Shown here piece by piece: positions 6,841 to 49,699 of a DNA stretch of 56,758 nt (the first letter of the stretch is position 1; the number at the start of each line of letters is the position of its first letter). The stretch is from positions 62,001-118,758 of the forward strand of contig CAUYUJ010000067.1 of the NCBI GenBank assembly GCA_963575745.1, written 5' to 3'. The DNA is from Prorocentrum cordatum. Its lineage: Eukaryota. Position numbers and translations under genes: made by a program. A model generated the notes under the pieces. It worked only from the letters and a program-made list of their open reading frames with translations. It ran no database searches and was not told the origin of the DNA.

Positions 6841-6994
6841 ACACAATAAAAACGCCTGTAGGGGGACACGCCCGGCCTAACCCTAGCTGGTGGTATTGGT
6901 ACTTTTGTCTCTCCTGACTCTACGGGGAGACGAGCCTTTGAGGCCCGCTGCCTTGGAAGCTGTGGCGCCCGAGAGGACGAACACATTCAAGGAG

Positions 6995-7292
6995 CAGGGA
7001 GGAGGAGGAGGAGGAGGAGGAGGAGGAGGAGGAGGAGGAGGAGGAGGAAGAGGAGAGGAGGAGGAGGAGGAGAGGAGGAGGAGGAGGAGGAGGAGGAGGA
7101 GGAGGAGGAGGAGGAGGAGGGAGGAGGAGGGAGGAGGAGGAGGAGGAGGAGGAGAGGAGGAAGAGGAGGGGAGGAGACAGGGGGGCGGAGGAGGAGGAGG
7201 GAGGAGGAGGAGGGAGGGAGGAGGGGGGAGGGAGGGAGGAGGAGAGGAGGAGGAGGAGGAGGAGGAGGAGGGGGAGGAGGAGGAAGAGGAGG
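6995..7292. repeat. (GGA)n microsatellite at the 3' end of LINE copy 1
   Basis: Direct reading. Confidence 0.97.
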
Positions 7293-7986
7293 ATACGATA
7301 CGATACGCACACCCTTAACGCCATGTTGTCTGGTTGTCCAATGAATGCTGTACTCGCTTAGTTACAAAAACGCGCAGCAGTGGGCCCTGAACATACAAGA
7401 CAGACTGGAGGCAGTGTGGCGCGGTGAACCTTCCCTTTGGAATGAGTGCCTATGCCGAAGCTCTACGCACCAGGGCCGCGGACGTGGCCCCGCACGGGGC
7501 CGTCCTGGCCTCTGCAGCCACCGACGCATAAGGTAGCCACAGGAGTCTGATGCGGGCGATATTCAGGGTTGACCGCTTGCTCTCTTAGCAATGTCAAGGA
7601 TGTTCCTACTGCTTGCAAAACTGGCAAACCTCTGAGACCCTGGGTAGATCCCTCTGGAGGCCAAATATTCAGTAACTATCTGCTTTTTCGGTTCGAGGAG
7701 GAGCGGGGGGAGGGGGCTGAGGACTCCGAAACCTGGGTCCAGAGAGGGCGGAGCGCACGGGCCTACAGGAAGAGGTAGTGGAGCTTGCCCTCGTAGGTCT
7801 CGATGGGGTGCTCAGCATGTCTTGGCGTATACCGGGTACTTCCAGGATAATATCATCAGAGCGGCCTTCGGGAACTGGAGCATGAGAACGAAAGCCGATC
7901 TCTGGTATGTTGAAGGTCGCTCGTACTTGATCAGCTTCAGTAGGTACTGATGCTTCCAAAATACGAACAACGTTATCTTCACACAT

Positions 7987-8155
7987 TCCCCCCCTCTTGT
8001 CAGCACGCAGGTCACCGTCACCGACGGATCCCAGAATGTGGCTTGCGCCACGATGCTGTTCGAGGGGGGGAGGCGCCCCCTCAGCACGCAGGTCACCGTC
8101 ACCGACGGATCCCAGTATCTGGCTTTCGCCACGATGCTGACCGAAGGGAGCGCCT
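7987..8155 (-). ncRNA. Two tandem copies of a predicted ~85-nt multi-stem RNA structure
   Basis: 59-bp core repeated at 8000-8058 and 8081-8139 (3 mismatches). Each copy is closed by a different 10-11 bp stem, and both hairpin loops are GNRA on the minus strand (GCAA, GAAA). Confidence 0.6.
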
Positions 8156-8675
8156 ATTTCAGCAGGGCCTTCTGGTATATCTTGTCCTGGCGGCATAATA
8201 GAATTAGCTCGCACTTCTGCTCGACTGAGTACCCGTCGTATTCCGCCCACGCCTTCTGTAGGTCGGCGTTGTTCTGGGCTCCGAGACTGTCGCCGTACGT
8301 GAGGAGCCCTTTGATGAGTCTGCCCATCGCGTAGATGTGCGGGGGCCCGAGTATGTGTTCCTTGCCCTTGGTTTCGTTGGCGTAAGCGACGGTCTGTTCG
8401 CTCATCATCGTGATGGATGCGGCCGTCATCGGGACGATGAGGGTGTCGAAGATGACTCCTGACATGTCGCGGTACTGCTGGCTGAGCCTGAGGATCTGCT
8501 TGAGCATGGGTGCGACGAGCTTCTTCTGCTTGTCGGGGATCCCTGCTGCCATCTTGTGTGAGTCCTCCTTCGTGCCGCCCTCGGTCCGTATCTTCTTCCG
8601 TTCGTCGCGTTGTCCCTGTCCACTGTCGTCGCCAGAGGCTGCTCCCCCGCTCGATGCCGCCAGGACGCCAGGCAT
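8154..8675 (-). CDS. Unknown 173-aa ORF downstream of pol inside LINE copy 1
   Basis: Own ATG, uninterrupted, non-repetitive protein-like sequence (RKKIR basic patch; MLKQILRLSQQYRDMSGVIFDT; LGPPH; CRQDKIY), same strand as pol. Confidence 0.7.
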   Translation of the reverse strand: MPGVLAASSGGAASGDDSGQGQRDERKKIRTEGGTKEDSHKMAAGIPDKQKKLVAPMLKQILRLSQQYRDMSGVIFDTLIVPMTAASITMMSEQTVAYANETKGKEHILGPPHIYAMGRLIKGLLTYGDSLGAQNNADLQKAWAEYDGYSVEQKCELILLCRQDKIYQKALLK

Positions 8676-8730
8676 GATGAGATAATGACGGGAGGGGTCG
8701 AGGTAGATGCTCGTCTTGGAGGTGCCGAAA

Positions 8731-9531
8731 CTACTCTATGCTCGATTGAACGTCTACGGACGTCGGGCACAGAGGGCATGTCCTCTCTTCCTTCTGCTCT
8801 GGTTCCCAAGACATGTGAGCTCTACCCATGATACATCTGCCATATCCATAAGAGTGTTTCAAATGTTTGCGAGCATTGTGTACATCTTTGAATATACTCA
8901 TGCAGTTAGGGCACTGGTTAGATATAACGCCACTATGCAATATGTACTTCATCTTGTGTCCGTTTGTCTGATGTCCCATAAGAGCCCTGTAGGTGTCGAA
9001 CTGGAGGCCACATGAGTTTCCCTCGGGGTCCGTCAACATGCATGTGTATACGTTTTCGCGTTTGGCTTCGCGGCAATGTACTTCTGGAAATAGTGTGCAC
9101 CATTTATCATAGTTTGTGAACGCTGCTGCTCTTAAGATCGAGGGGTCGATGCGAGTGAATTCGTGGAACGAATCTGAGTTGGGGTCGAGTAGGGTCTTCC
9201 ATGAGAACCAGCCGCTTCCCAAGCCTCGAAAAAACTCTCGGTCCCACTCACCCCCCGTAGAGGTACAAACTGCGATGCAACTCTTTTGCCCAGGGATTTG
9301 CGTCGATACTGAGCTGTCCGTCTGGCAGCAGCGTCGGTCGCGCATTCTGTAAATGACCGAAGATCGCCGCAATCGTCTGGCTGTGGGCGTGGCGGTGGTT
9401 GAGCATGCCTTGAAGCTACCTGAACCTGCGCACCGCCAACTCTCCCCGAGCGGGGAGGATGCGAAATCTGTAGAGCACCTCTGAATTCCGAAGTGTGCGA
9501 ACGTGTGGCCCATCGTAGGAAGTGGCAGCAC
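8731..9531 (-). pseudogene. C-terminal region of LINE copy 1 pol with C2H2 zinc fingers
   Basis: YTC...CGLQFDTYRALMGHQTNGH and QCPNCMSIFKDVHNARKHLKH; a third CPLC start. Confidence 0.85.
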
Positions 9532-9577
9532 CTCGCAATAGAACTCGTAGGTATTTTTCAGTGCAGGAGTCGATTCT

Positions 9578-10838
9578 TTAATATTCTGCTGGCTTCAGGG
9601 CAAATGTTTCTAAACCCGCGATGCCACTTTCCACAACTTTGCCAAGAAAGAGCTCGCGCTTGAGGCGATGCAATCCACGCTCGTGCCAAAATAGACCGAT
9701 GACCGACCAGCCCGCGTGCATAGAGCGCACTCTGTACTGTGCCTCTGGAGCGTTAGAGCCGTTCATATGGTGCCGAGCTCCCAGGTGCCTAGCGTGGCTT
9801 CGAACGGTGCCACAGGACTCAGGGCATATTTCCTGAAGGCGACGGTTTTCCTTGGTGGATCCCAGACATGGTATGATGTCTGTTTTGCATATTCTGCCGA
9901 ACCCGCCATTTTTCCAGAACCTGGTTCATGTTCGAGTCGCCTTCCTAGATTGCCTCTAGAGCCCCAGACGCCGAGTGATCTTCTAAAAATCGCCGTCGAC
10001 ATAAATCATCTGCAAAACCTACCATCGAGCAGTCCAGTGCTGTGTTTCCAAAGACTCCTGATAGGTAAACCGGGGTCCCGCCGAGCTCGGTGATTTCATC
10101 ATAACACTTGTCGAAGACGCCGACGAATTGTCGAGGTGCCTCACAGGGCCCCTGGATCCCCCCGTTCTTGCTAATAAAAGCCTCAAACTTGTTGTCTACT
10201 TCGATTAAAACTACACTGTTGATCAGGCGCTGCTTCGCGAAGTCCTGGGGATCCTCGCGCACCATGATCTCAGAAGTGCGCATTAAAAGGTCCTCAGTCG
10301 CTGGACACAAGAATGCATTCGTCATGTCGTGAAGCTCGCAAATGTGGGGGATCTTGGGTTTTCGTAAAGGCCATCCTAGACGTAGTTGTACTAGTATGGC
10401 CCCCTCCGTCCTCCGATATCTCAGAAAACCATGCCATCTTCCAGAAAACGATTTGTCATACGCCTCATCTTTGTCCCCCCAGCTATATAGTACTGAATAC
10501 CAATATTTCCAAAACGCGTCCGATAAGTGTACTATGCGTTGGCTGAACATGTTGCTCTTCCCGTTAGACTTGTCAAGCAGGATCCCCGCAGTGATACCAG
10601 ATTTTGTGGGTAGCTGTCCCACCTCGAAAGACCGAATCATAATATTTTCAAACTCCAGGCGTGCTCGTGTCATCTCTGCAGTGGCTGCAAGCATGTGCTC
10701 ACGTCCGGCAGGGGCTCGCTGGTCGTCGGGGTTCGCACGGCCTGGTTGAGTACTAAATATTTGTGTCAACTGAGAAGCTGGGGGAGCGATATGTTCGTCA
10801 TGTTCTTCGTGCGGTCCCATGTGCAGATCGAAGTCCAT
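9578..10838 (-). pseudogene. Reverse transcriptase domain of LINE copy 1
   Basis: QRIVHL, WHGF...RRTE, HDMTNAF, GGIQG, GFADD, then out-of-frame ARHLG followed by the thumb segment (EAQYRVRSMHAGW...LFLGKVVESGIAGLE). Confidence 0.92.
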
Positions 10839-11899
10839 GTTGTCGATCTCTGCGAAGGAATATGTCTCCCCCTCGTCGGCCGTAGTCCAGCGTAGACGTG
10901 GTCCTTCGTCACTGAGGGTGTTTTCTCCATGCGCTCAAAATCTCGGGTTGGTAGTATTTCCATCAAAGCGATGATGTTGACCCAAACCTGGTCGCTCCTC
11001 CTGTTTCTTATCTGAGCAGCCACCATACCCCAGACCAAACTTGGAATATCGTTGCTTGGATAAATGTCCAGGTTCCAGAACAATAAGAGCCAATTCCGAT
11101 GGTACACTCCACTTTGGTCCGCAACGTCTGCCACGAGCTTTTCGCAACTTCCATGCCATTTGTCTGACCATAACTGAGGCCGTGATCTCCATGTTGTGGT
11201 TGCGACGCTTGATCGTGGCCTCTTCTTCCAGGAAATTGGTGTATCATCTCATTCATGTCAGGTATGTAGGTCGCTTCCATTCCTTCGTCTGATCCTCGTT
11301 GTGCTAGGTGTCCCTTCAGTTCGTCCAGCGACGGCTTGTACGAAGAAATTGTATTGTAGCGCCTATTTTTCACACCAGTTGATCTGCCAAACAGTAATCG
11401 TGCCAGCTTGTGTACTTCAGCCTGCTGTCCTAAGAAACGTGCTTCCCGTAGTTCTTGATGGAGGCGTTCGCGGTGTGCGGCTCGGCGACGACGGGCCCAG
11501 CTTCGAAGCTGGGATGATATGCGTTTTATCCTCGCCAGGACATCCAAATACTCATCAGTAAAGTCAGGGAGATGGCCATAAGAATTCCAATACTCAGCTG
11601 CCTCGAGTCGGTGTAGTTTTCTTTGTCTTACCAGGGATAAACGTTCTTGCTGTAATCGATGTTGTGCTGTGTCCGTAGATGTTGGTTCCAATGAAAAATG
11701 TCGGAGTCCAACCTCGTGCACTGTTTTCGCCCAGGAATCGTAGAACTGCTCAGTGTGTTGATGTTGTGTGGCACATTCCGTGAAGAAATCCGCTTGTGCC
11801 TGCATAGTTTGTTCCAATTCCCGATGGAAACATTCCTGTCCTATGCCCGTCTGGAGTGCCTTTGATAGTTTCCGGAAGTCCCATTTTTCCTTTGGTACC

Positions 11900-12791
11900 A
11901 GGGGGATCGGGATGGGGATCTCGTACTTCATTTCAAGAACCACTGGAACGTGATCTCGGGGAGTGCTGTTTGGTATGAGTTGTAAGCTTCTTCCTGCCTG
12001 CCATGCCACATTGCAATGTTTTGTACCTGGTCCCAGGCCCTTTGGTATGGCGAAGACGTCCAGAGTAGCTTTGTTTCCCTGGGCCCCGTAGTAGGTAGGT
12101 CCTGAGTTTGGCCAAAACGTCCCTGGTGACATAAATTCGAGGTCTATAAGCATATTCGAAACATCTCTCCCGAGGGGCCATTTGGTCGAAGATGATGGGG
12201 CCCCAGGAGGTCTTGATCTCTATCTACTGGTGTTCCATCTTCCCAAAGCGCAAATCCAGAATCGATATCTAGGCCGCATGTTGGGGTACTTCTCGCTCGT
12301 GTTTGTTCGAGTCGCTGTCTCATATATTTCATGACCGTCGTCGCCGCCTGTATCTGTGCTCGCTTTTTTTTGTCCACTCGCATAGATAGGTGGGGGAGGT
12401 ATGCACACATTGCCGTAATATCTATGTTTCCACTTTTGATTCGTACCTCGCCATATCTGCCTGCAATTTTTTTGGGGCCCGCATGTACAGCATACACGTG
12501 TTGACGTTTGTTATGACGACTTAATACTATGCACACTCCTGCGCTGTTGTTACTGAAGGGAGCTCGTTGCCATCCAAAGTGTATTGCTACAAACTTGTTT
12601 CCAATATTCTCTGTATGATAATCTCGGCCTGACCACTCTTTCACCCTCGTCCCTGGTAATAGTATCAGGTCGCAGTTCATGGTCTCTGCGATCTCTCTTA
12701 AACGGCCTGCGGACACGAGGGAGAGGGGGTTGTAGAGGGCGACACGCAGTATACCCACCGTCAGCCTCCCGTATGGGCTCGCCAGATGCAT
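11900..12791 (-). pseudogene. Apurinic-like endonuclease (EEP/APE) domain of LINE copy 1
   Basis: LRVALYN, CDLILLPGT, SAGVCI, CAYLP, GLDIDS (for GDxN), PTYYG...TLDVF, RDHVPV (for SDH). Confidence 0.88.
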
Positions 12792-14236
12792 TGGTGGCCG
12801 AGCCAGGCTGGTGAAGGTGAATGAACGCTAGGTCTCTCTGGGACCTTTCGGGTCGCTGCCGCTGCGGAATGTTGGTTCGGGAGGACATGGCAGCTGGAAG
12901 AGGAGGAGGAGGAGGAGGAGGAGGAGGCAAAGGAGAGAGGACGACGAGGGGGAGGAGAGAGACAAAGGAGCAGGCCTACAGAAGCAAACAGCAACAGGCA
13001 CACGCTGGACACGCAACTAAAGACATTAAATTATCTTTGGGCCGTCTGGAGGCCACCGGGCCGTCTTGGAGCAGTCTCGGCTGTCTCGCGGCGCTCTTGG
13101 ACTGCCCCGGGGCCCTCTTGGGGCTCGCCTGGGCCCCTCTCGAGCAGTCTCGGCGCTCTCTGGCCTCCTGGGGAAGGGAGTGTGGCAAGCCACGGCGGCG
13201 CCGGAGAACGCCCGAGCAGCGCCCCAGGAGTTCCGGGAATCTGGGATCTAGACTTCTTGTGGGCGTCGCGTACTGGGGGGGGGCAATCATCGGAAACTGG
13301 AACGTGTACATTGCCAGTGGCGGGCTGTTTTTCAATCCCAGGACTCTCTGGGGGTCGGGGACGACGTCGGGGTGGTGTGGTGTATACTTATTTTCTTTTT
13401 TCCCCGGGGAAACGACGAAACATGTATACACCAGGGTCCCGCATACACCAGGATCCGTTTTCCTGTGCAAATTTCAGTGCAGGGCCAGAAAGGCGTCGGT
13501 GTATAGAGGTCGGTTCCCTAAATAAATGGGGGGGCAGCGAGGGCTCCAGAAAATGGGCCATTTCGGGCCCCTGAAGGGGTTCTTTTGGGCCCAGAAGGGA
13601 GCCTCCGGGGCCCGAGAAGTGCTCAACGCAGTTCCTCGTGGCACGGTGGCGGATCTAGAGGCCGCCGCCGTTGCTGGCCCCCCTGTGCTGGTCAACCGTG
13701 TCGCTCCAACCATCCTTTCACCACCCACCAAACCTTCCCAACCCAACCCGAAGGCCCCAATTTGCCCTCCATTACCAGTGCGGGGGGGGGGGGCGCCGGG
13801 GAACACTGACAAAACACATCTGAGATCCGTACCCCCCTCAACCCGAAATTTGGGTCTTCGGGCTGGGTTGGGACGAACTGTCCTTGAGCTGTCTTGGGGT
13901 TGACACTGTGACGCTGGGGTGCCCCTCGAGGAACCTCAGGTCCTCCCTGAGGGCCCCGTGAAGGCACCCTGCGAGACGTGTGCCCGGGGTGCGGCGATCT
14001 CGCGCGATTTGCTGGAATAGTCCCAGATGGAGCCATGGGCCACAGTACCCAAGGGTCGTGCAGCCATAGGTCCTGAGAGACCCCCACAGCGCGCGCTGTT
14101 CGGGGAGCCTCTTGGCGAATGCACGCACTCCCCAAAGTGAAGTGCAGGATTTTGTATCGTTGCTCTCGGGGAGACCAGATCGAAGCCTGGGGGCTTTGAA
14201 GGCCCGGCGTTTTTTTCGCGCTCATCGCGTGCACAG

Positions 14237-14370
14237 TCATGGTGCGCTGGAGCGGCGTGCTCGTGCGTCGTGCCTTCTCTTTGGATGCTGGCTGTCCCTG
14301 GCGGCATCACGTTTTGGCCCCCCTGTTCGTCGCCGGGTTCTATGCTGCCACGCCGAAGCGAATACTAGGG
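14237..14370 (+). CDS. Internal exon of the same membrane protein gene (not in ORF track)
   Basis: CAG| acceptor, then (V)MVRWSGVLVRRAFSLDAGCPWRHHVLAPLFVAGFYAATPKRILG. Resembles the 'VRRA...H.LLAPLFC.G.FHAT.KR' block of a conserved hypothetical membrane protein family of algae and bacteria (from memory). An alternative acceptor at 14202 keeps the same frame. Confidence 0.75.
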
Positions 14371-14564
14371 GAACGAATAATGGTATAAACATACAAACTC
14401 GGAGGTCCGCGCGGACTTCTCGGATCCGCGCTTGGCCCCCCTGGCGGCGCCTCCGACGCCGCTCCTGGCGCGCTCCGCGCGCCAGGGAGATGGGTCCAGC
14501 GCGGATCCAAGAAATCCGCGCGGACCTCCGAGTTTTTATGTTTATGTCATCTTTCGTTCCCCTA
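14366..14564. mobile_element. 199-bp MITE-type Introner with ~70-bp TIRs and AATAC target-site duplication
   Basis: AATAC (14361-65), TAGGGGAACGAA ... TTCGTTCCCCTA, AATAC (14565-69). TIRs continue inward through AAACTCGGAGGTCCGCGCGGA / TCCGCGCGGACCTCCGAGTTT. Confidence 0.92.
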
Positions 14565-14574
14565 AATACTGAAG

Positions 14575-14835
14575 GCGTGGGGTTTGGTCCTCTTCATCGT
14601 TGTCATCGGCATTGTGGTGGCGCACCTTCCTTCGCCGTACCGGGCCATAGTGGACGTAGGAGTAGTTCTAAACTTGCTGGGAGGGACCCTGGCACTCATC
14701 GGATTCACGGCCCAGGTCCTGTTCCTGGGGAGGCTCCCAGAGCTGTCCCCGGACTTCCCCGACGGCGGGCCCACGTATCCACCGGTGGTGGCGTTCCCAT
14801 CGGGCGATGCGGGGCTGACTGACGTCGCTGCGTGA
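14575..14835 (+). CDS. Terminal exon of the same membrane protein gene
   Basis: GAAG| acceptor, then AWGLVLFIVVIGIVVAHLPSPYRAIVDVGVVLNLLGGTLALIGFTAQVLFLGRLPELSPDFP...VAA-TGA. Two TM helices and an 'LP.P(W/Y)R.I.D.GVV' motif; in frame with the previous exon once 14371-14574 is removed. Confidence 0.8.
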   Translation, partial: AWGLVLFIVVIGIVVAHLPSPYRAIVDVGVVLNLLGGTLALIGFTAQVLFLGRLPELSPDFPDGGPTYPPVVAFPSGDAGLTDVAA

Positions 14836-15104
14836 CTTGGCCACCAGCGGGTGAGGCACAGCCTGAGATCCATCCCGATCCGAAGACGCTGTTCGGGGCC
14901 GACTGAGGCAGCCCCGGTTTCGGATCTTCGACGGTGGCGTGGTGGAGGCAGCACGTGGGCTCCTTGCCACGCCCTCACCGCAGGCCGCGTCCGCCAGACG
15001 CAGGTGCTCCCGTCGTTTGAGCTGTAAGCTTACGACCTGTGAGCATGCCCTGGCGTTTCTGGCAGAACCACCATCATCAGGGGCGACGCGAGGGAAGGAT
15101 ATAC

Positions 15105-15262
15105 TGAGGAGGGAATGCATCGACCCCCAATCGCCCGCTGATCGCCGATGGGGGCCGGATAGCCCGCCTCACCCAGGAACGTGCGGTTTCGCTATCGGGT
15201 GCTTACCGTCGATCTATCGCCGACGTATCGCCAATTTCAGCTTGACTTGCCCCCCCCCCTGA
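15105..15262. mobile_element. ~155-bp MITE family (CATCGACCCC ... GGTCGATG, G-run/C-run ends); other copies ~23093-23255, 35104-35258, 43948-44105
   Basis: Shared catcgaccccc.atcgc...atcgccgat core. The copy at 35104 shows TIRs TCAGGGGGGGG..CATCGACC / GGTCGATG..CCCCTGA. Confidence 0.7.
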
Positions 15263-17499
15263 GGCGGCCCTCCTACAGTCAGCGCGCATGGTCAGGTTGA
15301 ATGACATTCCCATGGGTACCCTTGCACCCTTGCCGATTCCGCCTATTCTGAGGCAATTATTAGCTCAAAGAACTTCAACTGAGGCGTCCAAAGATCTTGC
15401 AGCCTTACCGTTTACATCACGTCGCGCACATCATGTCATGTCATGTCGCGCAAGGCCTTGCACATTCCAAATCGTTTCAACTTGAAGCAGTAGCGCTCGG
15501 CGCACGGCCACCCCTTCTGGCAATAACGAAACCGATGAACGCAATAGGACTGAGTTCTGACGCTACTTGTAGCCCCACCAACCCATCCAACATCGCATCC
15601 CAGGAGCGCGTGGTCCAGGGAAGTCCTTGGGGGGATGGGAAGAGCCGCAGTCTCACTCTCACGCTTCTGGTATGCAGTCCTCAGAGCGCGGGCCCCAGGA
15701 GGGATATTCTCACGCAGATGTTTAGACGTGTCGGTTGGCAGGTTGAGTGTTTTTGCGTGTGTTCTTGATTTGGCAGCTGGAAAGCTTGTTTTTTGTTTGT
15801 AGTTGTTCTGGATACCCAGGTCTTCTGGCATGTTATATTTTCTGGGCGACCACGCAATTGAACGGCATTCTGCTGCATGGCTTTCAGGATCATGCATTCT
15901 ATCAGCCGTCCTCGGTTTCCCCACCTCTGCCCTTTTCCTCCTGTCACCCCTCCGCTTCCTCGTCCTCCTCTGCGCGACGCCTCTTGCCAGGTCGCAGGGC
16001 GACAGACCATTCGGTGTTTCTTTCGGTGGTGAGCCTGGGGGGCAATGAGAGGGGGCCGGCCTTCTCAGAAGGTGGGGGGGGGTTCTCAGAAGCCCTCGCG
16101 CCTTCTGAGAGGTGTCCCGCGTCTCCGGGGAAGGCTCAAACAACTTCTCAGAAGTCCTGAGGCCTTCCGAGCCCTTCTGAGAAAGCCCGCCCCCTCTCAC
16201 GTCCCCCTTGGGCTCGCCGCCGATTCATGTCAGAGGGTAAGAAGCCACTGTGAAGCACATGACTCCATGCTTGTGGTTCAATGCTGATGTGGATCTCCCC
16301 AATGAATATCCCCCTGATCGTGCATGCAGCCAATACGATGAACTCAGAATCGTTTTGGGCGCAGGCAGGGCTCTGGGTTTCGGGCTGCTACCTAAATTTA
16401 GGTCGGGGAACCTGTTTGTGGCCTAGGCCCGCCGGCGTTCCTCATGGTGGCACGATGACTGCATATCCACCGACCTGCTAAACTGGCTCAGCTCAGCATT
16501 GGCTTAGAACGGTTCCGTGCCCTCCGACACGAAACACATGTTGTTACAAGGGCATGCCACTCTGCGACCTGGCAAGAGGAGCCGCGCCCAGAAGAGGAGG
16601 AGGGGGGGTCAAGAGGAGAGGCTGAGGGAGGAGGAGCAGGACAAGGAGGATGACACAGCGCTTGGCCGACCAAGAACATGGAATGCAAAAAGTAGCGGCC
16701 CCGAATTACCGCACACACCTATGTGTATGTGTGTATCTGCAGTACGGTGTATAGAGGTACACACATATATATATATGTATATAGATGTGTGTATGTTGAT
16801 TTGTAAGTCGGAGGCTGGGGGTGAGATCGCAGTGGAACGGAGACCCCCCGCCGTGAAATCGATGTCGAAATCGTGTTCGTGCCGTGCGTCGTGCCAGCAC
16901 AATTGTCAGTTCTCAATCGCGCCAAAATATTTGGAAGTCATGTGTCGTGCCAACACACCATTCTTGGGATTTCAACGCCGCGAGGCAACGTGACTGTTAC
17001 GTCCTGACGATCGTGAAACGTGCCAGAAAAGGGTTGCTGGAACTGCTACACCGCGAGTCAAAGCGATTGCTACGTCTTGACAATTTGAAACCGTGATAGA
17101 GCACCATTCCTTGGAGTTCACCGCGAATCAGCGTGTAGTCCGCGCAGTTTGAGTCGTACCAGAGCGCCCTTCCTGGGACCCCAGCCGTGCGATTGTTTTA
17201 CACTGCGCGATATTCCTAAATGACTGTGCGCGGCGCCAGGGCGAGAGTGAGATCTTGAAACGCAAGCACGCCGCCCCCCCATCCGTGAAGCTCTCTGCAA
17301 ACCTGTGAGACGAGTGCGTGCGGCGCTACGGCGAGACCCGCGCAGCGAAAATGGCCCGCCCCCCATCTGAGAAGCCCCTGCAGCTTCTGAGCGCTAGGGC
17401 TATGAGTGGTGGCGACGTCTCGGGCAAAAGGCCAGGCCCGCCCAACCGACGCGTCTCGGGGTCCGACAGGGCGGAGTGATTGAAAGGAACAGGCGTGAA

Positions 17500-22240: not shown

Positions 22241-23796
22241 GGGCCCACAAAGGATCGGCTAGACCCAGAAGGTCGGGGGCCCCCAAACGGTGTGGTGACC
22301 ACCCCGTGCGGTGAGTCAGTGGGGAGTAGGGGTCGCCGCACGGTTTTGGGACTCGGGTCCTTTTCCGAGGATGTCTCGGGCGACAGGGGCCTCCAGGGTC
22401 CCAAGACCGTGCGGTGACGGACCGGTGAGGTCTCTTGGGGTTCCGAGGTCACCGCACGGTCTGTCACCGCACCGTTTCGGGACTCCAAAGAAGGAGGTCC
22501 AGCGACAAGAGGGTGGTGCAATAGATTTGGTGCAATCGATTTGTGGGCTTGCCATACACTTGGGGCGTGCAATACGTTCCGGGGCGCACATGTATTCTGG
22601 GATTTCTCGCGCGCAACACACGAGGTGCAATCTAATGCATTACATGTCTCCGGTGCAATACACTTGCAATACAATTGCCCCAAACCTATTGCACCACCCC
22701 CTTTCAGCTGGACCCCCTCTTGGATCAACCAGAGTAGATCTAGGCCTCACAGATGGGGTCCGAGCAGGTGGGGTCGGCCGCCATGGGGGAAGCGGGTCCT
22801 CAGGGAGACGGCTCCTGAGGTTTGCTTTGTCTCTCTGGACGAATGTCTCGTCTTGGGGAAGGGGCCCTGGGTCCAGGGCCCGTTTCCCTCGGGAGCCGTT
22901 CCCGTTTCCCCCATGCTGAGGCAGAGGATTGCGCCGCATCGTCGACGGCGCCGGTGCATCGTCGACGTCGCCGGCGCGTCGCCGATGCCTTGGCGAGGCA
23001 TCGGCGATGCGGCGCGATCCTGCGACCCTTACACCCGCCCCATCTAGGAGACCTCAAACCGAGGGTGGCGGGGTTGAACGTTGGGGGGAATAGGCGGGGG
23101 TGGATGCATCGACCCCCATCGCTCGCCCACTCATGGCCGATGGGGGCCTGGTAACCCGCCCCGCCCAGCTCGTGGAGTCGCTATCAGGGGCATATCGCCA
23201 CTCCAACGGCGAAGTATCGCCGATCCAAGCCCGATCCCATCTGAGCTGCCCCCCTGCACCATTACCTCTCAGGCAGTGCGTGCCCAGATTTCCTCGCGTT
23301 GCCAAACAGTTACGACGGGTCCCCTTCTGGGGCCTGGGGCCTCAAAAAACGATTCGAGCGAAGCGGAGGATCACGCCGCATCGCCGATACATCGATGTTG
23401 CGGCTCGATGTGGGGCTCGGTTTGCTCCACGACCATACCGCTGATGCATGGCTGATGTCGCCGATGCACTGGCGATGCGTGAGCGATGCGTCGCGATTCT
23501 CCGACCTCATCTGCTCCGGCTCCATTTGAGAAGCCTGCGGATTTCTTGAGGATAATGAAGGAATCCGAAGGATGTCCCAATGATTCCTGAGTGTTGCCTA
23601 AGAACTCAAAATCATACGTCTGAGCGCCGTGGATGTCGGATTCCTTCTGTGGCGTCTTTGTCAGTTTCTGTCACGCACGCGTCTGTCTTCAGAGCCTAGA
23701 TGCCGCCACAAGCCTCGGGGTCTCACTTCTTTTCGATTCCGCGGTTGTGATCACAGCTTAGTGGTTTCATGTGTGGTTCGCCGAGTTGCGTTGTCT

Positions 23797-29547: not shown

Positions 29548-30366
29548 CTTAGCTTAGCGTTGCTTATCTCATCTTAGCTTAGCTTATTTCATCTTCGCTT
29601 AGCTTATGTTGATTTTAGCTCTGGTCTATCTTAGCTTAGCTTACATTCGTCTTAGCTTCGCTGAGCTCTAGCATAGCAGAGCACATCATAACATATCATA
29701 GCGTAGCATATCATATCGCTGCACAGTATATCACAGCATAGCCCAGCATATCATCGCGCAGCATAGCATAGCATAGCATAGCATAGCATAGCATAGCGCA
29801 GCACAGCACAACACAGCATAGCACAGCGCAGCATAGCATAGCATAGCATAGCAGAGCATAGCCCAGCATAGCAGCACAGCAAAGGCAAATCAACAGCAGC
29901 GACAGCAAAGTAAAGCACAAGCAACGCAAAGCAAAGCAAAGCAAATGCAAAAGCACAGCAAAGGAAAGGCAAAGCAACAGCAATGTGCGACAGATGCCGG
30001 GCTAGCCTCGATGGCCGGACCGGAGCCCCCGCAAGCAGTGTCTTCCGGAGCCAGCTTAGCTTAGCTTGGCATAGCATAGCGCAGCGCTGTATTAGCATAG
30101 CCAAGCATAGCATAGCATAGCATAGCATAGCATAGCGCAGCGTAACATAGCCTAGCCTAGCATATCATAGCAGAACGTAACGCAGCTTTACATAACATAT
30201 CATATCATAACATAGCTTAGCATAACACAGCGCAGCATGACATAGCATAGCTTAGCATAGCATAGCGCAGCATCGAATAACATATCATATCATAGCATAG
30301 CGCAGCATAGCATAGCATAGCATAGCGCAGCATAGCATGGCATAGCACAGCATAGCATAGCATAGC
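29548..30366. repeat. (AGCAT)n / (AGCTT)n / (AGCAA)n pentanucleotide satellite
   Basis: Direct reading. Confidence 0.95.
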
Positions 30367-30921
30367 AACTAATGTTGCTTTCCTAGGGGCTCCACCTTCT
30401 AGGTAGGGTCGCACTGGGGTAATTTACATTGGGGTTTCGCCATTGGGTTTTGGGGGTTAAGATTGCCCCCGTTGTATCAAATCTATCAGCGGCATGCCGC
30501 ATTTGCATATTCAATGCCGCTTCGAAACCCAGACTGGGTGCGCGGTGCGCAGGGAGTGGTCCCTGAGCGCAGTCTCTATCCACGCTGGGGTCGCGGGGCG
30601 TGGCGTGCGTGGCCTGGCGCCAAGAGGGGGTGTTCAGGAATCTGTCCCTGCACGCAGGGCGCCAGGGCGGTCGCGGGGGCGTCACCAGCGATCCAGTTTC
30701 GATGGGCGCATTACAGCGCGGGGGAAAACCATTTTTTTAATGTCCCCCCAACTATTCTTAACCAGTTTTTTGACATTACGTGGCAGGGGTCGCGTGTTGT
30801 TCCACCCCAATCTCGGCACATCTCTCACACGCTTCGTAGCCCCATAGGGAGCCCCACCGAAGACGATTCTCACATTTGCGGCACTCGCAACTGCATATGG
30901 TTGGGTCCTTCGCCAGGCTAC

Positions 30922-33361
30922 TTTCTCCCCAGGGGGGGCGGCAGCGCTAAGGCGCGAAGGCTACTTCGCCAGGTGGCGTACGGTCGAAACTTTGTAATAC
31001 GGGCTGATTTGATTTCTGGGGTGGCGTGGAGTTTCCTCCGTTCTTCCCAGGGCGCTCCCAAAGCTAGCTTCGAGTGAGGCTACAGGGACCTCGTTCCCGT
31101 TTCGTGGTTCCTTGGGGGGGAGGTTAAGGAAGGAGGTTAAGGAGGAGACAGAGGACGGGGAGGAGGAAGAGGAGGAGGAGGAGGAGAAGGAGGGAACGGA
31201 CGATGATGAGGGTGGGGACGCGGACGATGATGATGCGGATGCTGATGTTGATGACTAGGTTGTTGCGGATAGTGATGATGTTGTTGATGAGGTTGGCGAT
31301 GGTGATTGTGATTATCGCGATTATGATGACGACGACGGCGACGACATGCTGATATGATACCCATGATGGTGTTGGTGATGATGATGAGGATGATGAGGAT
31401 GATGATGCTGCTGATGATGGCCGTGTTGATGGTCAGGATGCCGCTGATGAGGATGATGATGCTGCTAATGATGATGATGATGCTGATGCTGATGGTGATT
31501 ATGTTGTTGCGATTATTGTCGTTGATGCTGCTGATGATGCTGGTGATGGTGATGGTGTTGATTGCGATTAACATGACGAATACGGCGATGAACTGATGAT
31601 ACGAGACTGATGATGATGTTGGTGATGATGGTGATTATGTCGCTGATGATGGATGATTATGATGGTGGTGACGATGCTGATGAGGGTGATGATGATGATC
31701 CTGATTATGCTGATGCTAGTGTTGGTGATCATTGTGGTGGTTGTGACGATGCTGTTGGTGCCGATGATGATTTTAATAAGAATGGTGATGTCGGTGATAA
31801 TGACTGTGATGAGTGTGATGAAGCTGCAGATGACGATGGTGATGATGATGATTCCGATGATGCTCATGTTGATGCTGAGTATGGTTCTGATGATGGCGAT
31901 GAGTGTGGTGATGAGGATAATGCTGCTGATCATGATTGTGCGGCTGCTGCTTCTGATGATGCTGCTGATGATGATGCTGATGAGATCATGATGGCGATGA
32001 TGATGATGCTGCTGATGGTGATTATGCTGATAATCACGACAATGGCGATGCTGATAACAACGATGTTGATGACGAATATGATGCTGCGGCGGATGATGCT
32101 GCTGATGATGATGATGATGATGACGATGTTGATGCAGTTGCTGGTGATGATGATGCTGCTGATGCTGTTGCTGTGGGTGATGCTGCTGATGATGAGGAGG
32201 AGGGCGGAGGAGGAGGAAGAGGGGGAGGAGGGGGGGGAGGGAGGACGGTTGGAGGTAAAATGGATTGCAGCATATCCTACAGCAATCAGACGGGGGACGC
32301 AACGATGACAATCTCAAGTGACAGCATTCGCGCCATATACTCCGTCAATCAGCGAGGCGTTTAGGTCACCCGCAGGGACGCGAGGACAACAGCGGCCAGA
32401 GTTGTTTCTCCTCGGGGGGGGGGGGAGCGCTACGGCGCGCATACTTCTGCGCCAGGTGGCCTACGGCCGAAACTTTGGAATAGGGTATGATTTGATGACC
32501 GAGTGGGCGTATGGTTCCCTCCGTTCTTCCCAGAGCGCTCCTAAAGCTATCTTCAACTGAGGCCACACGGGGACCTCGTTTCATTATCGTGGCTGCTTGG
32601 GGGGGAAGGTGGAGTTCGGAGGACGAGGAGGAGTAGAAGGAAGATGATGACATGGATGATGGTGATTCTGATGATAATGATGATGGTGATGCTGATTGTG
32701 ATGATGCTGATGCTGGTGGTGATGATGATGCTGATGCTGATGCTGATGATGGTGGTGGTGCTGCCGATGATGATGATGCTGGTGGTAATGCTGACGCTGG
32801 TATTGATGATGATGATGATGCTGCTGATGCTGATGATGATGATGATGCTGATGATGATTGTGATGATGTTGATGAGGATGACAAGGCTGATGTTGATTAT
32901 GCTGACGATGCTGATGATGACAAAGGTGATGATGATACTGATGACGATGACGATGATGGCAATGGTGAGGATGATGATGATGTTGATGATGATGGTGATG
33001 AAGATGCAGATGACGACGACGATGATGATTGTGATGATGGCGATGACGAGGATGGTGATGCTGATGATGATGATGGTGCTGCTGATGATGATGCTGATGA
33101 TGCTGATGAAAATTATGATGCTGATGGCGGTGATGATAATGATGATGCTGATGATGACGATGCTGATGATGGTGAATCTGATGACGATGCTGATGGTGAT
33201 GCTGCTGATGATGGTGATGTTGATGCTGCTGCTGCTGATGATGATGATGATGGTGATGATGTGATAATACTACTGCTGATGCTGAGGATGATGATCAGGA
33301 GGACGAGGATGATGATGATGATGCTGATGATGCTGATGATGCTGATGATGATGATGATGAC

Positions 33362-33450
<89 letters not shown>

Positions 33451-33630
33451 GCATGCAGCTTGTGACCACGAGGCTTATGCAGATCATGATGATGCTTCTG
33501 TTGCTGATGATACTGATTGTGACGATGATGGTGACGCTGCTTCTAATGATGAGGAGGAGGGGGCTGGGGGGAGGGAGGATGGTTGGAGAGACGAGCGGGG
33601 GAGGGAGGAGAGCGGAGGCAGGACGATGAT
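30922..33630. repeat. Tandem ~1.5-kb macro-repeat: conserved ~200-bp head, ~1 kb degenerate (GAT)n, conserved tail
   Basis: Heads 30925-31125 and 32408-32610 align (CGCCAGGTGGC.TACGG.CGAAACTTTG...CCGTTCTTCCCAG.GCGCTCC.AAAGCTA); tails 23985-24190, 32190-32407 and part of 33550-33625 align. Confidence 0.85.
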
Positions 33631-33830
33631 CCTTGACCCAATTCGGCTTGGCTGCCCGGCCGCCCGCGCGTGCCTGGCCTCGTGCCTTATGGGGCCAGGG
33701 GGAGATATGGCCGCACCGCGGCTGGCGGGGGCCCCGGGGAGGCGCGCCCGCGGGCGCCTCTGGGAGCTGGGCCGGAGGAGGAGGAGGAGGAGGAGGAGGA
33801 GGAGGAGGAGCTCCGCGTCTAGGCCTCTCA

Positions 33831-33998
33831 GTTGGGATCGGAGCAGGTGGGGTCGGAGGATCGCGCCGCATCGCCGATGCATCGGCGATGCATCGGCGAT
33901 GCGGCTCGACGTGGTGCCCAATTTTCTCCACGCAGACTTCGCGGATGTATCGGCGATGCGGCGCGATCCTCCCACCCCATCTACTCCGATCCCATCTA
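33831..33998. mobile_element. Palindromic MITE family with CATCGCCGATG core; other copies ~22750-23045 (with nested TIR insert ~22781-22915), ~23355-23525, ~40200-40380
   Basis: Long TIRs GGGATCGGAGCAGGTGGGGTCGGAGGATCGCGCCGCATCGCCGAT / ATCGGCGATGCGGCGCGATCCTCCCACCCCATCTACTCCGATCCC. Confidence 0.8.
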
Positions 33999-35404
33999 GG
34001 AGGACGAGGAGGAGTAGGAGCGGCTGGAGAAGGACCGGCTCGCGTCTCATGGGAGGCGATGAGTGATCCAGCGCGTCCGTCGTGCACGACCCATCCGCGC
34101 AGAGCTCCGGAGCTCTAGTCCACGTCCCCCTTGGTGCGGATGCGCTTTATGCATTCTTCACGCTTCACGTATCCCCACGTCACGCATGCAGCCCTGGCCG
34201 CTTGCAGCCAGCCCAACCAGCTCAGCTTCAGCCAGTTGCCCCCCCGGCGGTAGGTTCTGATCCCGCGCTCGGTCGCTGCATAATTAGGCTCGCGCGTAGC
34301 CCGCTCGACCTTTTCGGACGCCTCCTGCGCTTTCGCTGGCGGCCGCGACAAAAAAAAAGTATCCCCACGTCACGAGCCCGTTCAGAGAAACCCTGCTCAT
34401 GAGTGCTGACGGGAAGAGGAGCGAAGAGGCACGTAGTGAACCAGAGCGGGCAACCAGGATGAACAGAAAGATCTTTTCGGGCCATCCCTGGGGCCCGCGG
34501 GGGGGGAAAACGGATGAGGAGGAGGAGGACAAGGAGAAGGAGGGGGAGGGGGAGGAGGCAAACCGTCTCTTGGGGCTCTCGGCACGCTCTTAGGCGCTCT
34601 TGGGGCCGTCTTAGGGCACTCTTGGCACCCTCTTGGAGCTCTCTTGGGGCCTTCTGGGGGGCCCTGTAAGGCTTGTGGGCCTCTTGGGCTCCTCTTGGGG
34701 CTCTCTTGGGCCATCTGGTGGCCATCTTGAGGCATCAAAAGCACATCGGAATCGAAAGTGCGAGAAGGCAACACTCATTGACTTCCCGTCGGTGTTTGGA
34801 AGATTTTGGCCTCTTCGGGGGGTCCTGGGTTTTGTGGCCCTCGTCGTGTCTCTCGGATGTACGTCGAAAGCCAGATTGAACCATCTTCGGCAATCTTGAG
34901 GCATCGTGAAGGCCCTGACGGCCATTTTGTAGCATTGGGTATTCTCATGACGCTCTAGCCCCTCGGGCCCCCTGCCAACAAACCTCAGGGAGGGGAGGGG
35001 GAGGGTCCCCCCCCCCCCGAAGGGAAGAGGGTTTCGGACGAGGAAAGAACTCGTCAGACCGCCTGCGCCCAGAGGGCTGGTGGGGCTCTAGGGGTGGATA
35101 GGATCAGGGGGGGGATTCATCGACCCCTGATCGCCCACTCATCGCCGATATTGGCCCGATTGCCCCGTCCAGCAGCGTACGGTTTCGCTGTCGGGGGCCC
35201 ACCGCCGATCTACCGGCGATGTGTTGCCGATTCCAGGTCGATGTCCCCCCTCCCCTGAGCCAGCCCCCCCGTACCGTCCCCCCTCGCTGCGGTGTTCGCC
35301 ACCAGGGCCGATGCGCGCACCGCAGCAGCGCACCGTGCGAGCTCCGTGCTGGGCGCTCTCCGGCCACACCTGGGCAGCATGTCTGCCGCGCTGCCGTGTT
35401 CCGT

Positions 35405-45439: not shown

Positions 45440-46747
45440 ACACAAACACACACACACACTCACACACAAACACACGCACCCCTCCCACACACACACACAC
45501 ACACACACACCCACCCACACACCCACACGTACACACACACACTCCGACACACACCCACACACACACACGCACACTTTTTAAAATCGGCGGCGCAGAGGGT
45601 CCTCAAGCGCGGGTAGCAGATGGAATTGCGAATTGGGATCGAGCATTGTCGAAGGCACAGTGTACGACACACACACACACACACGCACGCACACACACAC
45701 ACCCTTACCCCCACACACACAACCACACGCACACACACCCAAACACGCACGCACACCCACACGCACACACCCACTCACCCACACACACACACACACATAC
45801 CCACACACCCACGCACCCACACACCTTCACACCAACACTCACACACGCACATACCCACACACCCACTCACCACCCACACCCATACACCCACACCCACCTA
45901 CCCACGTACCCACACACCCGCACAACCACGCACCCGCACACCCCCACACCCCCACACCCACACACGCCCACACACACACAGCCACACACCCACACACACC
46001 CACAGCCTCCCACAGCGCACACCCCACACCCGCACACCCCCACACCCGCACACCACGACACCCACACGCACCCACACCCCCACACCCTCACACCCACACA
46101 CCCACCACCCAAACCCCAACGCACTCACACCCCCACACCTCCCCACTCCCAACCCCACACCGCCACACCCCCACACCGCCACACACCCACACCCACCTCC
46201 ACACCCACACCCACTCCTTTACCCGCACCCACACCCACATTTACACCCACACCCACAAGGACACGCACACGCACACGACACGCACACGCACACGCACACG
46301 CACGCGCACACGCACTCGCACCCGCACACGCACCCGCACCCGCACTCGCACACGCACACGCATACGCACACGCACACGCATTCGCACTTGCACCCGTACA
46401 TACACACACACGCACGCACACGCACACGCACACGCCTACACACGCACACGCACACAAACCCACACCACACACACGCGCACACGCACACACACGCACCCGC
46501 ACCCGCACCCGTACCCGCACCCGCACCCGCACCCGCACCCGCACCCGCACACGCACCCGCACCCGCACTCGCACCCGCACACATACGCACACGCATACGC
46601 ACACGCACACGCACCCACCCCCCCACCACCCCCCACACACACACACACACACACACACCCACACACACACACCCACACCCACACCCACACACACACACAC
46701 ACACGCACATTCACACACGCACACGCACACGCACACGCGCACACGCA

Positions 46748-46779
<32 letters not shown>

Positions 46780-47140
46780 ACACACACTCACACACACACC
46801 ACGCGCAACCCACACCCACACACACCACCCACACACACACACGCACACACCCACGCACGCACGTACGCACTCACGCACGCACGCACGCACGCACGCACAC
46901 GCACACCCACACCCACACACCCACATGCACACACCCACGCACACACGCACGCACGCACGCATTCACTCACGCACGCACGCACGCACGCACACGCCCACAC
47001 ACCACTCACACACACCAGCACACACACACCGACACACACACACACACACACCAACACACACACACACACGCACACACACACATCACCACACACCACACAC
47101 CACACCACACACCACACGCCACACACCACAAACCACACCA
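45440..47140. repeat. Compound (CA)n/(CACG)n/(CACACG)n/(CACCCG)n microsatellite field
   Basis: Direct reading; 45576-45665 is a short unique interruption. Confidence 0.97.
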
Positions 47141-49690: not shown

Positions 49691-49699
49691 CTTGATGAT

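What the first reader, a model, noticed from the sequence alone, without database searches (positions are those of the whole stretch)
7987..8155. Tandem covarying structured RNA starting at the stop codon of the LINE's 3' ORF
Seen on the minus (element sense) strand: two adjacent ~85-nt units. Each has an outer stem, an inner CAGCA/UGCUG stem, a UGGC-GNRA-GCCA hairpin and a CCGUC-GGU-GACGG hairpin. The outer stems differ completely in sequence yet both pair: 7987-7996 with 8062-8071 is a perfect 10 bp, and 8071-8081 with 8145-8155 is 11 bp with a G-U valid only on the minus strand. The loop change GAAA/GCAA keeps GNRA. This pattern suggests selection on RNA structure rather than a plain duplication. 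I could not fit it to hammerhead, HDV, twister or pistol consensus. Candidates (inference): an RT-recognition signal, a readthrough or processing element, or a new ribozyme or small mobile RNA.
Basis: partly seen in the sequence, partly recalled or inferred. Interest (0 to 1): 0.75.

Follow-up and report, generated by a model that had tools for sequence, protein, structure and literature searches.

The report
Tandem structured repeats in retroelement tail
Two almost identical 59-base segments, each clamped by a GC-rich stem, lie directly after the last gene of a decayed retrotransposon-like repeat in a dinoflagellate genome; they are probably a conserved tail signal of that element, but the claimed proof of selection on RNA shape does not hold up yet.

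Summary
The anatomy is real. On the minus strand, 8155-7987 holds two 85-nt units: 59-nt cores identical at 56 of 59 positions, 81 nt apart, each closed by a 10-11 bp stem. The "covariation" reading is not established:
- The three inner helices never vary.
- The two outer stems are not in register relative to the core.
- The outer stems are G-run/C-run pairings of related, partly palindromic spacers.
- Both strands fold equally well (z -4.6 and -4.8).
- The core alone folds no better than shuffles.
- The G-U pair is a private C>T change.

No Rfam family matches.

The best protein relatives are from Prorocentrum cordatum. The TAG is the family's genuine stop. The window copy carries a 49-codon in-frame deletion just before it. 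The small ORF is linked to an RT-like ORF at a second locus, but Pfam sees neither RT nor endonuclease.

One low-coverage DNA run holds the core in at least 8 contigs, including tandem cores with other spacers.

Best reading (0.38): a conserved cis-acting 3'-UTR module of a LINE-like element. Main rival (0.30): a neutral tandem duplication. Interest is modest.

The parts
8071..8155 (-). Unit A: outer stem (8155-8145 with 8081-8071, 11 bp, one U-G at 8149/8077) enclosing core A
   Evidence: Pair probabilities in a 569-nt context are 0.28-1.0.
7987..8071 (-). Unit B: outer stem (8071-8062 with 7996-7987, 10 bp, perfect) enclosing core B
   Evidence: Pair probabilities are 0.59-1.0.
8081..8139 (-). 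Core A (59 nt). Possible closing stem 8139-8135/8086-8082. GAAA-capped hairpin 8131-8120. Hairpin 8108-8096, which could extend through a 3x3 internal loop (GAU/UGA) to GG/CC.
   Evidence: The closing stem has probability 0.03 here.
8000..8058 (-). Core B (59 nt), identical to core A at 56 of 59 positions. Closing stem 8058-8054/8005-8001. GCAA-capped hairpin 8050-8039. Hairpin 8027-8015.
   Evidence: All helices have probability 0.96 or more.
8059..8080 (-). Spacer between the cores (22 nt). A G-run then a C-run. It supplies the 3' arm of stem A and the 5' arm of stem B, and can instead fold on itself.
   Evidence: 31-nt piece 8085-8055 folds at -14.3 kcal/mol. My alignment by eye to the 16 nt before core A.
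8154..8156 (-). TAG stop of the last ORF. Its AG is the start of stem A.
   Evidence: P0001 and the window both end ALLK-stop.
8154..8675 (-). Last ORF of the element (173 aa from ATG). 77% identical to residues 1-172 of P. cordatum protein P0001. Residues 173-221 of P0001 are missing (in-frame deletion at 8168/8169).
   Evidence: Four X1 contigs continue at 8168 with letters that I read as RRRITFATR.
9945..10934 (-). RT-like ORF. By eye it shows D..NAF, G.QG and FADD motifs in RT order. Linked to the small ORF in P0009.
   Evidence: No Pfam or PDB match.
12144..12827 (-). N-terminal ORF that I read by eye as AP-endonuclease-like. It lies in a different frame from the ATG at 12888.
   Evidence: No Pfam or PDB match.
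7000..7293 (-). (CCT)n microsatellite preceded by (CGTAT)3 at 7307-7292. A possible alternative 3' end of the element. A shorter (CCT)n lies just before the element's ATG at 12930-12900.

Best explanation
The two units are a conserved cis-acting module in the 3' untranslated region of a LINE-like retroelement. The element is a multi-ORF, RT-like repeat of a Prorocentrum-type dinoflagellate.

The module is an old tandem duplication of a 59-nt core. In the element's sense transcript each core can form a small three-way junction. It has a short closing stem, a GNRA-capped 4-bp hairpin, and a longer hairpin with a GAU/UGA internal loop that could form tandem G-A pairs.

GC-rich spacers, made of a G-run plus a C-run and partly palindromic, lie between and beside the cores. 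By pairing across a core they clamp it.

I infer that the core sequence is what is kept. I also infer that it serves as a binding or recognition site for an element-encoded protein during RNP assembly or target-primed reverse transcription, as in stringent-type LINEs.

Shown here: the anatomy, the position at the genuine stop, recurrence in other copies, and tandem cores with other spacers. Inferred: that the RNA (not the DNA) is the active form, that the stems matter, and the function.
For: - The units start at the family's real stop codon. They lie on the coding strand of all the element's ORFs.
- The small ORF and the RT-like ORF are linked at a second locus.
- In run X1 the core is covered by 8 contigs at 8116, all with the same single difference from the window. 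Two further records join two cores in tandem, through 33 and 7 other letters instead of the window's 22-nt spacer (tables 3 and 5c). The duplication therefore predates the divergence of the spacers, while the cores stayed alike.
- Table 3 lists 12 sites in 164 nt of ORF where most of X1 differs from the window. It lists 2 such sites in 118 nt of cores. Fisher p = 0.048. This is weak, because 82 rows were not shown.
- GNRA loops and the G-A-capable internal loop exist only on the sense strand.
- The outer stems and hairpins persist in a 569-nt context.
- In stringent-type LINEs the ORF2 protein recognises a cognate 3'-tail stem-loop (PMC4176376, abstract read).
Against: - There is no covariation: 14 of 14 inner pairs are invariant and the outer stems are out of register.
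- The core alone is no more stable than shuffles.
- The plus strand folds as well.
- One X1 record joins two cores with 7 other letters in place of the spacer. By my reading this leaves about 10 nt between cores, too short for two 10-bp arms.
- The units may lie about 690 nt upstream of the true 3' end, if the element ends at the (CGTAT)3/(CCT)n junction near 7294. That is unlike the terminal stem-loops of UnaL2 or ZfL2.
- RT and endonuclease are not recognised by Pfam or by PDB sequence search.
- No other copy could be read base by base. No genome is held and the public scans found only chance 22-mers.
Confidence: 0.38

Rival explanations
1. A neutral minisatellite. An 81-bp segment of the 3' UTR was duplicated in tandem. 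Its spacer was a GC palindrome (G-run, CG, C-run). Neighbouring spacer copies therefore automatically pair across each core. Slippage in the homopolymer runs makes the spacers look variable while the cores simply have not had time to diverge. There is no function.
For: - The 16 nt before core A and the 22-nt spacer align directly by eye. All stem arms are G-runs or C-runs.
- The spacer folds on itself (-14.3 kcal/mol).
- The stems are out of register.
- Inverted repeats at this spacing are common in the window (2.8% of positions; about 30 distinct 9-mer pairs).
- The U-G pair is a private transition.
- Both strands fold alike.
- This copy is a dead one, with at least 4 frame breaks and a deletion.
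Against: - Other copies keep two tandem cores while their spacers differ in length and content (33 and 7 other letters). One of these is not a simple run-length variant.
- The listed majority differences are fewer in the cores than in the ORF (weak).
Confidence: 0.3
2. An independent small mobile element (SINE-, MITE- or introner-like) that landed in, or was captured by, the element's 3' UTR.
For: - Each unit has 10-11 bp inverted ends. Dinoflagellate introner elements are defined by inverted repeats of 8-20 nt (PMC7789003 and PMC10666404, passages read).
- The window holds other small inverted-repeat elements.
Against: - The inverted ends differ between units while the interior is conserved. 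This is the opposite of a transposase-bound TIR.
- I saw no convincing direct repeats, only a 3-nt AAT on both sides of the pair.
- There is no other core in the 56.8-kb window.
- My earlier idea that the units were inserted into the ORF was refuted by the ALLK-stop match.
Confidence: 0.08
3. A translational recoding or termination signal. A stable structure at the UAG promotes readthrough into the 113-codon open frame that follows, or promotes termination-reinitiation.
For: - The structure begins inside the stop codon.
- The same frame stays open for 113 codons (7812-8153).
- Third-position GC is 0.84 in the units, against 0.79 in the ORF.
Against: - By my recollection, known readthrough stimulators sit several nt downstream of the stop, not at it.
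- The extension has no protein relatives. The 5 hits were all unrelated repeat proteins, and one search gave 0 hits.
- All 3 core differences would be non-synonymous.
- Another frame is open for 353 codons here, so open frames are cheap in this sequence.
Confidence: 0.07
4. A new self-cleaving ribozyme or processing element that trims the element's transcript. Each tandem unit is one catalytic fold whose closing stem is free to vary.
For: - Compact three-way-junction architecture with GNRA and possible G-A pairs.
- Tandem arrangement.
- Conserved core with variable closing helices.
Against: - No match to any of 4227 Rfam families at E up to 10 in 7000-9000.
- No conserved unpaired nucleotides could be assessed with only two sequences.
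- No RNA run was available to look for ends.
- The core is not unusually stable.
Confidence: 0.07
5. A coding repeat: the units encode a 27-residue protein repeat in the ORF's frame.
For: - The period of 81 is a multiple of three.
- Third-position GC is 0.84 in that frame. This is 17 of 20 codons per core, binomial p = 0.024 before correcting for three frames.
Against: - A stop codon precedes the units.
- No real homologues were found in 1.84 billion representatives or in the word-indexed search.
- The differences between units are all at codon positions 1 or 2.
Confidence: 0.04

Closest known systems
3'-tail stem-loops of stringent-type LINEs (eel UnaL2, zebrafish ZfL2-1/2)
   Same: - A conserved, structured RNA in the sense 3' UTR of an RT-bearing element.
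- The stem is recognised generally and the loop specifically by the element's own ORF2 protein (PMC4176376, abstract; PMC1636434, search listing and start of abstract).
   Different: - Here there are two tandem three-way-junction modules, not one hairpin.
- They sit at the stop codon and possibly about 690 nt from the 3' end.
- No short tail repeat directly follows.
- No partner SINE is known.
- Binding and requirement are untested.
- The RT is not verified by any profile.
Introner elements of dinoflagellates (Amoebophrya, Prorocentrum cordatum)
   Same: - Short elements with 8-20 nt inverted repeats at both ends that can form a hairpin.
- The inverted-repeat sequences are not family-specific (PMC7789003, passages).
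- They are reported as enriched in P. cordatum introns (PMC10666404, passages).
   Different: - There is no evidence that the units are an intron.
- No 3-5 nt direct repeats overlap the ends.
- They lie after a stop codon in a retroelement, in tandem, with a conserved interior.
Tandem-repeat (minisatellite) regions in transposon untranslated regions
   Same: - Head-to-tail duplication of an approximately 80-bp unit in a UTR.
- Spacer length is variable between copies.
   Different: - There are only two copies here.
- The cores appear conserved while the spacers diverge.
- Each core is enclosed by a long stem.
Small self-cleaving ribozymes associated with retroelements (HDV-like in R2/RTE/L1Tc, hammerheads in Penelope-like elements and retrozymes; recalled from memory, not read here)
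   Same: - Compact multi-helix RNA inside a retroelement transcript.
- The closing helices are free to vary.
   Different: - No covariance-model match to any of them.
- By my recollection, the known retroelement ribozymes mostly lie at the 5' end or in terminal repeats, not after the last stop.

Membership tests
Stringent-type LINE 3'-tail recognition stem-loop | The host element is a non-LTR retrotransposon encoding RT (and an endonuclease) | tested here: inconclusive
   Pfam found no RVT or Exo_endo_phos match at E up to 10. PDB phmmer found none. AlphaFold gave pLDDT 32, which is unusable. The Atlas lead points to a cluster where 41% of members carry RVT_1, score 0.93. By eye the RT motifs A, B and C appear in order. 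The RT-like piece and the last ORF are linked at a second locus.
Stringent-type LINE 3'-tail recognition stem-loop | The structure lies at the very 3' end of the element, just before the tail repeat | tested here: inconclusive
   A (CGTAT)3 plus (CCT)n junction at about 7294 would put the units about 690 nt upstream. One X1 record (7910-8082) runs from unit B into the same downstream sequence. No second full copy could be read.
Stringent-type LINE 3'-tail recognition stem-loop | Conserved among copies of the element | tested here: inconclusive
   8 contigs of run X1 carry the core, all with the same single difference from the window at 8116. Two tandem joints have other spacers. This comes from one low-coverage run, and the contigs could not be read base by base.
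Stringent-type LINE 3'-tail recognition stem-loop | Bound by the element's protein and required for retrotransposition | not testable with these tools
   Needs a binding assay and a retrotransposition assay.
Known self-cleaving ribozymes and all other Rfam 15 families | Match to the family covariance model | tested here: not met
   cmscan of 7000-9000, both strands, E up to 10. It gave 3 weak matches, none overlapping 7987-8155 and all far below gathering score.
Dinoflagellate introner element (definition of Farhat et al. 2021 as used by Dougan et al. 2023) | Inverted repeats of 8-20 nt at both ends | tested here: met
   10 and 11 bp.
Dinoflagellate introner element (definition of Farhat et al. 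2021 as used by Dougan et al. 2023) | Lies in an intron, with direct repeats of 3-5 nt overlapping the boundaries | tested here: not met
   The units follow the ORF's genuine stop. By eye, only a 3-nt AAT flanks the pair. There are no GT/GC/GA...AG borders that restore a frame. No RNA data were available.
MITE / TIR DNA transposon | Family-specific terminal inverted repeats and target-site duplication | tested here: not met
   The arms of units A and B differ while the interior is 95% identical. I saw no target-site duplication.
tRNA / tRNA-derived SINE head | tRNA-like fold | tested here: not met
   ARAGORN found 0 genes in the whole window.

The most novel reading that the evidence does not exclude
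The 59-nt core is a previously undescribed functional RNA fold specific to dinoflagellate retroelements. It would be either a new small self-cleaving or processing motif that defines the transcript's end, or a new kind of RT-recruiting three-way junction. In either case its closing helix is free to change, which is why each copy has its own stem.
Probability: 0.1. Interest if true: 0.7.

Novelty: new member of a known kind. Interest (0 to 1): 0.33.

Why it matters
Dinoflagellate genomes are huge and rich in repeats, and their retroelements are almost unstudied. A conserved, structured tail module would give a handle on several things:
- how these elements are recognised and copied;
- a probe to census the family;
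- possibly a way to find non-autonomous passengers that share the module.

If the module turned out to be catalytic it would be a new ribozyme class. As it stands, it is an ordinary-looking UTR repeat with an attractive predicted fold and no demonstrated constraint on structure.

Tried and rejected
1. Units as a 180-nt insertion into the ORF. I held this. I rejected it because P0001 and the window both end ALLK-stop. The break at 8168/8169 is a 49-codon deletion in the window copy, and the P0001 tail is found nowhere else in the window.

2. Whole genome. None is held.

3. Public scans with a 22-nt core pattern.
   - Viral contigs gave 0 hits.
   - Metagenome contigs gave 1 and genome contigs gave 2.
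   - All three match only model positions 44-64 of the unit model, at 22 bits against 97-105 for the real units. L001 reads as unrelated sequence. These are chance matches.

4. RNA evidence. No RNA holder was listed for 7600-8800. The one DNA run (X1, share 0.08) was laid.
   - Its summed depth is lower just 3' of unit B (9-19) than on the cores (77-123).
   - The tool warns that contig depth cannot rank parts, so I draw no boundary from it.
   - Record 4 (8157-8415) has fewer than 31 letters beyond 8168, so it does not count as bridging the deletion.

5. Coding-repeat idea.
   - phmmer of the 113-aa post-stop frame against 1.84 billion representatives gave 5 hits. Of these I read 4 (P0004, P0005, P0006, P0008), and all are unrelated repetitive proteins. 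The fifth (P0007) had no aligned stretch.
   - The word-indexed search of the 55-aa unit frame among longer proteins had 69 candidates and 0 at E up to 10.
   - Only one of the three open frames was searched.

6. RT and endonuclease verification.
   - Pfam and PDB gave nothing.
   - The single-sequence AlphaFold model had pLDDT 32, so I ran no fold search.
   - Atlas for P0001 gave only inconsistent helical-repeat leads.

7. Target-site duplication search between 6900-8000 and 12700-17000. It found only (CCT)n and two CT-rich 10-mers.

8. A covariance model built from the two units found no further copy in the window.

9. Earlier findings of this scan. There was nothing for this place, this sequence or these words. 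The dinoflagellate hits were all plastid minicircles.

10. Literature. Searches for dinoflagellate + introner, P. cordatum + LINE + repeats, dinoflagellate + non-LTR/LINE, and ribozyme + dinoflagellate + retrotransposon listed no paper describing this module. I judged these from the listings only. Supplements of the P. cordatum genome paper were not opened.

Full report
**What is there**

On the minus strand, 8155-7987 consists of two adjacent 85-nt units that share one base, 8071.

- Each unit holds a 59-nt core: 8139-8081 and 8058-8000. The cores repeat with a period of 81 and differ at 3 of 59 positions.
- Those differences are GAAA versus GCAA in a tetraloop, plus two bases in the single-stranded stretch after it.
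- Each core is flanked by complementary arms. Stem A is 11 bp with one U-G (8155-8145 with 8081-8071). Stem B is 10 bp and perfect (8071-8062 with 7996-7987).

No other copy exists in the 56.8-kb window:
- a 20-mer search allowing up to 3 mismatches found 2 matches, against 0.04 expected;
- self-BLAST of 7001-13500 found only the unit-to-unit match;
- a covariance model built from the two units found nothing else below E = 0.1.

**Is it more than chance?**

- The 169 nt fold at -91.6 kcal/mol, z = -4.56, with 0 of 200 shuffles as good.
- Within 569 nt of context most outer-stem pairs keep probability near 1. The exception is the inner half of stem A, at about 0.56. The four hairpins keep probability 0.87 or more.

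Three controls weaken the RNA reading:
1. The plus strand folds as well (-84.0, z = -4.77).
2. The conserved core alone is not unusually stable (z -1.3 and -1.7, with 49 and 26 of 500 shuffles as good). The statistical signal is therefore the outer stems.
3. In this window, flanks of an arbitrary 59-nt segment contain a complementary run of 10 or more at 225 of 8092 sampled positions, or 2.8%. The window is generally rich in inverted repeats at this spacing.

In addition, the inner CAGCA/UGCUG stem is not favoured in unit A. Its probability is 0.03, because an extension of the outer stem wins. It is favoured in unit B.

**Covariation**

- On a core-anchored alignment the 14 pairs of the three inner helices never vary. 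That says nothing either way.
- The two outer stems occupy different columns. Stem A starts 5 nt before and 0 nt after the core. Stem B starts 3 nt before and 4 nt after.
- In the register of stem A, only 1 of 11 pairs changes on both sides and 5 fail in unit B.
- All four arms are G-runs or C-runs.
- By eye, the 16 nt before core A align directly with the 22-nt spacer between the cores.
- That spacer is a near-palindrome (G-run, CG-rich centre, C-run) that can fold on itself, at -14.3 kcal/mol.

A tandem array with a palindromic spacer automatically gives each core a closing stem. So "different sequence, both pair" is expected without selection.

It is therefore a private C>T change in this copy.
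- GAAA to GCAA changes the free N position of GNRA, so keeping GNRA is no evidence.

**Known families**

- cmscan against all 4227 Rfam families over 7000-9000 at E up to 10 gave 3 weak hits. None lies in the units.
- ARAGORN found no tRNA-like gene.

**Context**

- The best relatives of the ORF that ends at the units are unnamed proteins of Prorocentrum cordatum. They are P0001 (225 aa, 78% identity by BLASTP, 77% by tblastn) and P0002. There is also a transcriptome-derived fragment. The window is therefore from that dinoflagellate or a close relative.
- I first thought the units were an insertion, because P0001 continues for 53 residues where the window stops. tblastn shows P0001 residues 1-172 on 8675-8169 and nothing for the tail elsewhere.
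- P0001 ends ...ALLK and the window ORF ends QK-ALLK-stop. The window copy therefore has an in-frame deletion of residues 173-221, and the TAG at 8154-8156 is the family's own stop.
- Four X1 contigs leave the window at 8168. By my translation, their letters read RRRITFATR, which is the undeleted form.

**Is it a LINE?**

- Upstream on the same strand lie broken ORFs. By eye I read an AP-endonuclease-like start (12144-12827) and RT motifs A, B and C in order (9945-10934).
- No tool confirmed this. Pfam gave nothing at E up to 10. PDB phmmer gave nothing. The single-sequence structure model was unusable at pLDDT 32.
- A language-model search gave only a lead, to a cluster where 41% of members carry RVT_1 (score 0.93).
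- A chimeric P. cordatum gene model (P0009) contains the same RT-like peptide followed by the small ORF. The two therefore travel together at a second locus.
- The element is flanked by (CCT)n on both sides: 12930-12900, just before its ATG at 12888, and 7293-7000. A (CGTAT)3 lies at 7307-7292. If that is the true 3' end, the units are about 690 nt internal.

I call the element LINE-like and unverified. This copy is dead, with several frame breaks and the deletion.

**Other copies**

No genome is held. Scans of viral, metagenome and prokaryote collections gave only chance 22-mer matches.

One coded DNA run (X1, kept as contigs, share of words 0.08) was laid, and 67 of its contigs fitted:
- 8 contigs cover 8116 and all carry the same single difference from the window.
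- 2 contigs cover 8038, likewise with one shared difference from the window.
- Two records join one core to the next through 33 and through 7 other letters, instead of the window's 22-nt spacer.
- One record (7910-8082, 13 differences, 1 gap) runs from unit B into the same downstream sequence.

The tandem pair of cores is therefore old enough for the spacers to have diverged, while the cores stayed nearly identical.

Among the rows shown, the X1 majority differs from the window at 12 sites in 164 nt of ORF, but at 2 in 118 nt of cores (Fisher p = 0.048). This is suggestive only, because 82 rows were not shown and the contigs were chosen by likeness.

The copy with 7 joining letters leaves, by my reading, about 10 nt between cores. 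That is too short for two 10-bp arms, so closing stems are not universal in the form seen here.

**Interpretation**

- The best-supported reading (0.38) is a conserved cis-acting module of the element's 3' UTR. It acts as sense RNA, possibly as a protein-recognition site. The precedent is stringent-type LINEs, whose ORF2 protein binds a cognate 3'-tail stem-loop (PMC4176376, abstract).
- Sense-strand-only features give mild support: GNRA loops, and a GAU/UGA internal loop that could form tandem G-A pairs.
- The main rival (0.30) is a neutral tandem duplication with a slippage-prone palindromic spacer.
- Smaller rivals: a captured small mobile element, a recoding signal at the stop, a new ribozyme, and a coding repeat. 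For the coding repeat, third-position GC is 0.84 in the ORF frame, but searches found no protein relatives.
- The introner elements reported for P. cordatum and Amoebophrya share the 8-20 nt inverted ends (passages read). Their intron position and direct repeats are not met here.

**Verdict**

The claim of covarying structure is not demonstrated. The ribozyme idea has no support. The LINE-tail idea is plausible but needs the genome-wide set of copies. Novelty: at most a new member of a known kind (a structured LINE 3' UTR element) in a lineage where none has been described in the papers my searches listed.

Noticed in passing
window 22915-23030, 23365-23490, 33850-33980, 40230-40345: Four copies of a 100-130 bp foldback or MITE-like element. 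It has long terminal inverted repeats that begin with a shared GGAGGATC motif and contain CGATG-rich internal repeats. One copy has a perfect 16-bp inverted pair 70 nt apart. It may be one of the introner-type elements reported for this species.
   Followed up: partly
window 36660-37140: Tandem array of about five units of roughly 90 bp. Each unit carries the palindrome CCGCATGCGG.
   Followed up: no
window 7000-7293 and 12900-12930: A (CCT)n microsatellite flanks the retroelement on both sides, with about 98 and about 10 repeats on the element's strand. A (CGTAT)3 lies at 7307-7292. The element may target this microsatellite, or may end in a short tail repeat.
   Followed up: partly
window 8168/8169: In-frame deletion of 49 codons in the last ORF relative to P. 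cordatum protein P0001. By eye, the deletion is bounded by a repeated G/GAG.
   Followed up: yes
window 7669-8730, minus strand: A second frame, offset from the ORF, stays open for 353 codons across the ORF, the units and the downstream sequence. It is probably a by-product of GC-rich codon usage.
   Followed up: no
window 30001-34000 and 44001-50000: Long stretches of strong strand asymmetry. GC skew is +0.25 to +0.39 at 30-34 kb. At 44-50 kb, GC skew is -0.30 to -0.40 and AT skew is up to +0.63.
   Followed up: no
protein P0009 (P. cordatum, 1244 aa): A public gene model that fuses an Hsp70 fragment with pieces of this retroelement (the RT-like peptide and the small ORF). It is probably a mis-joined prediction.
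   Followed up: partly
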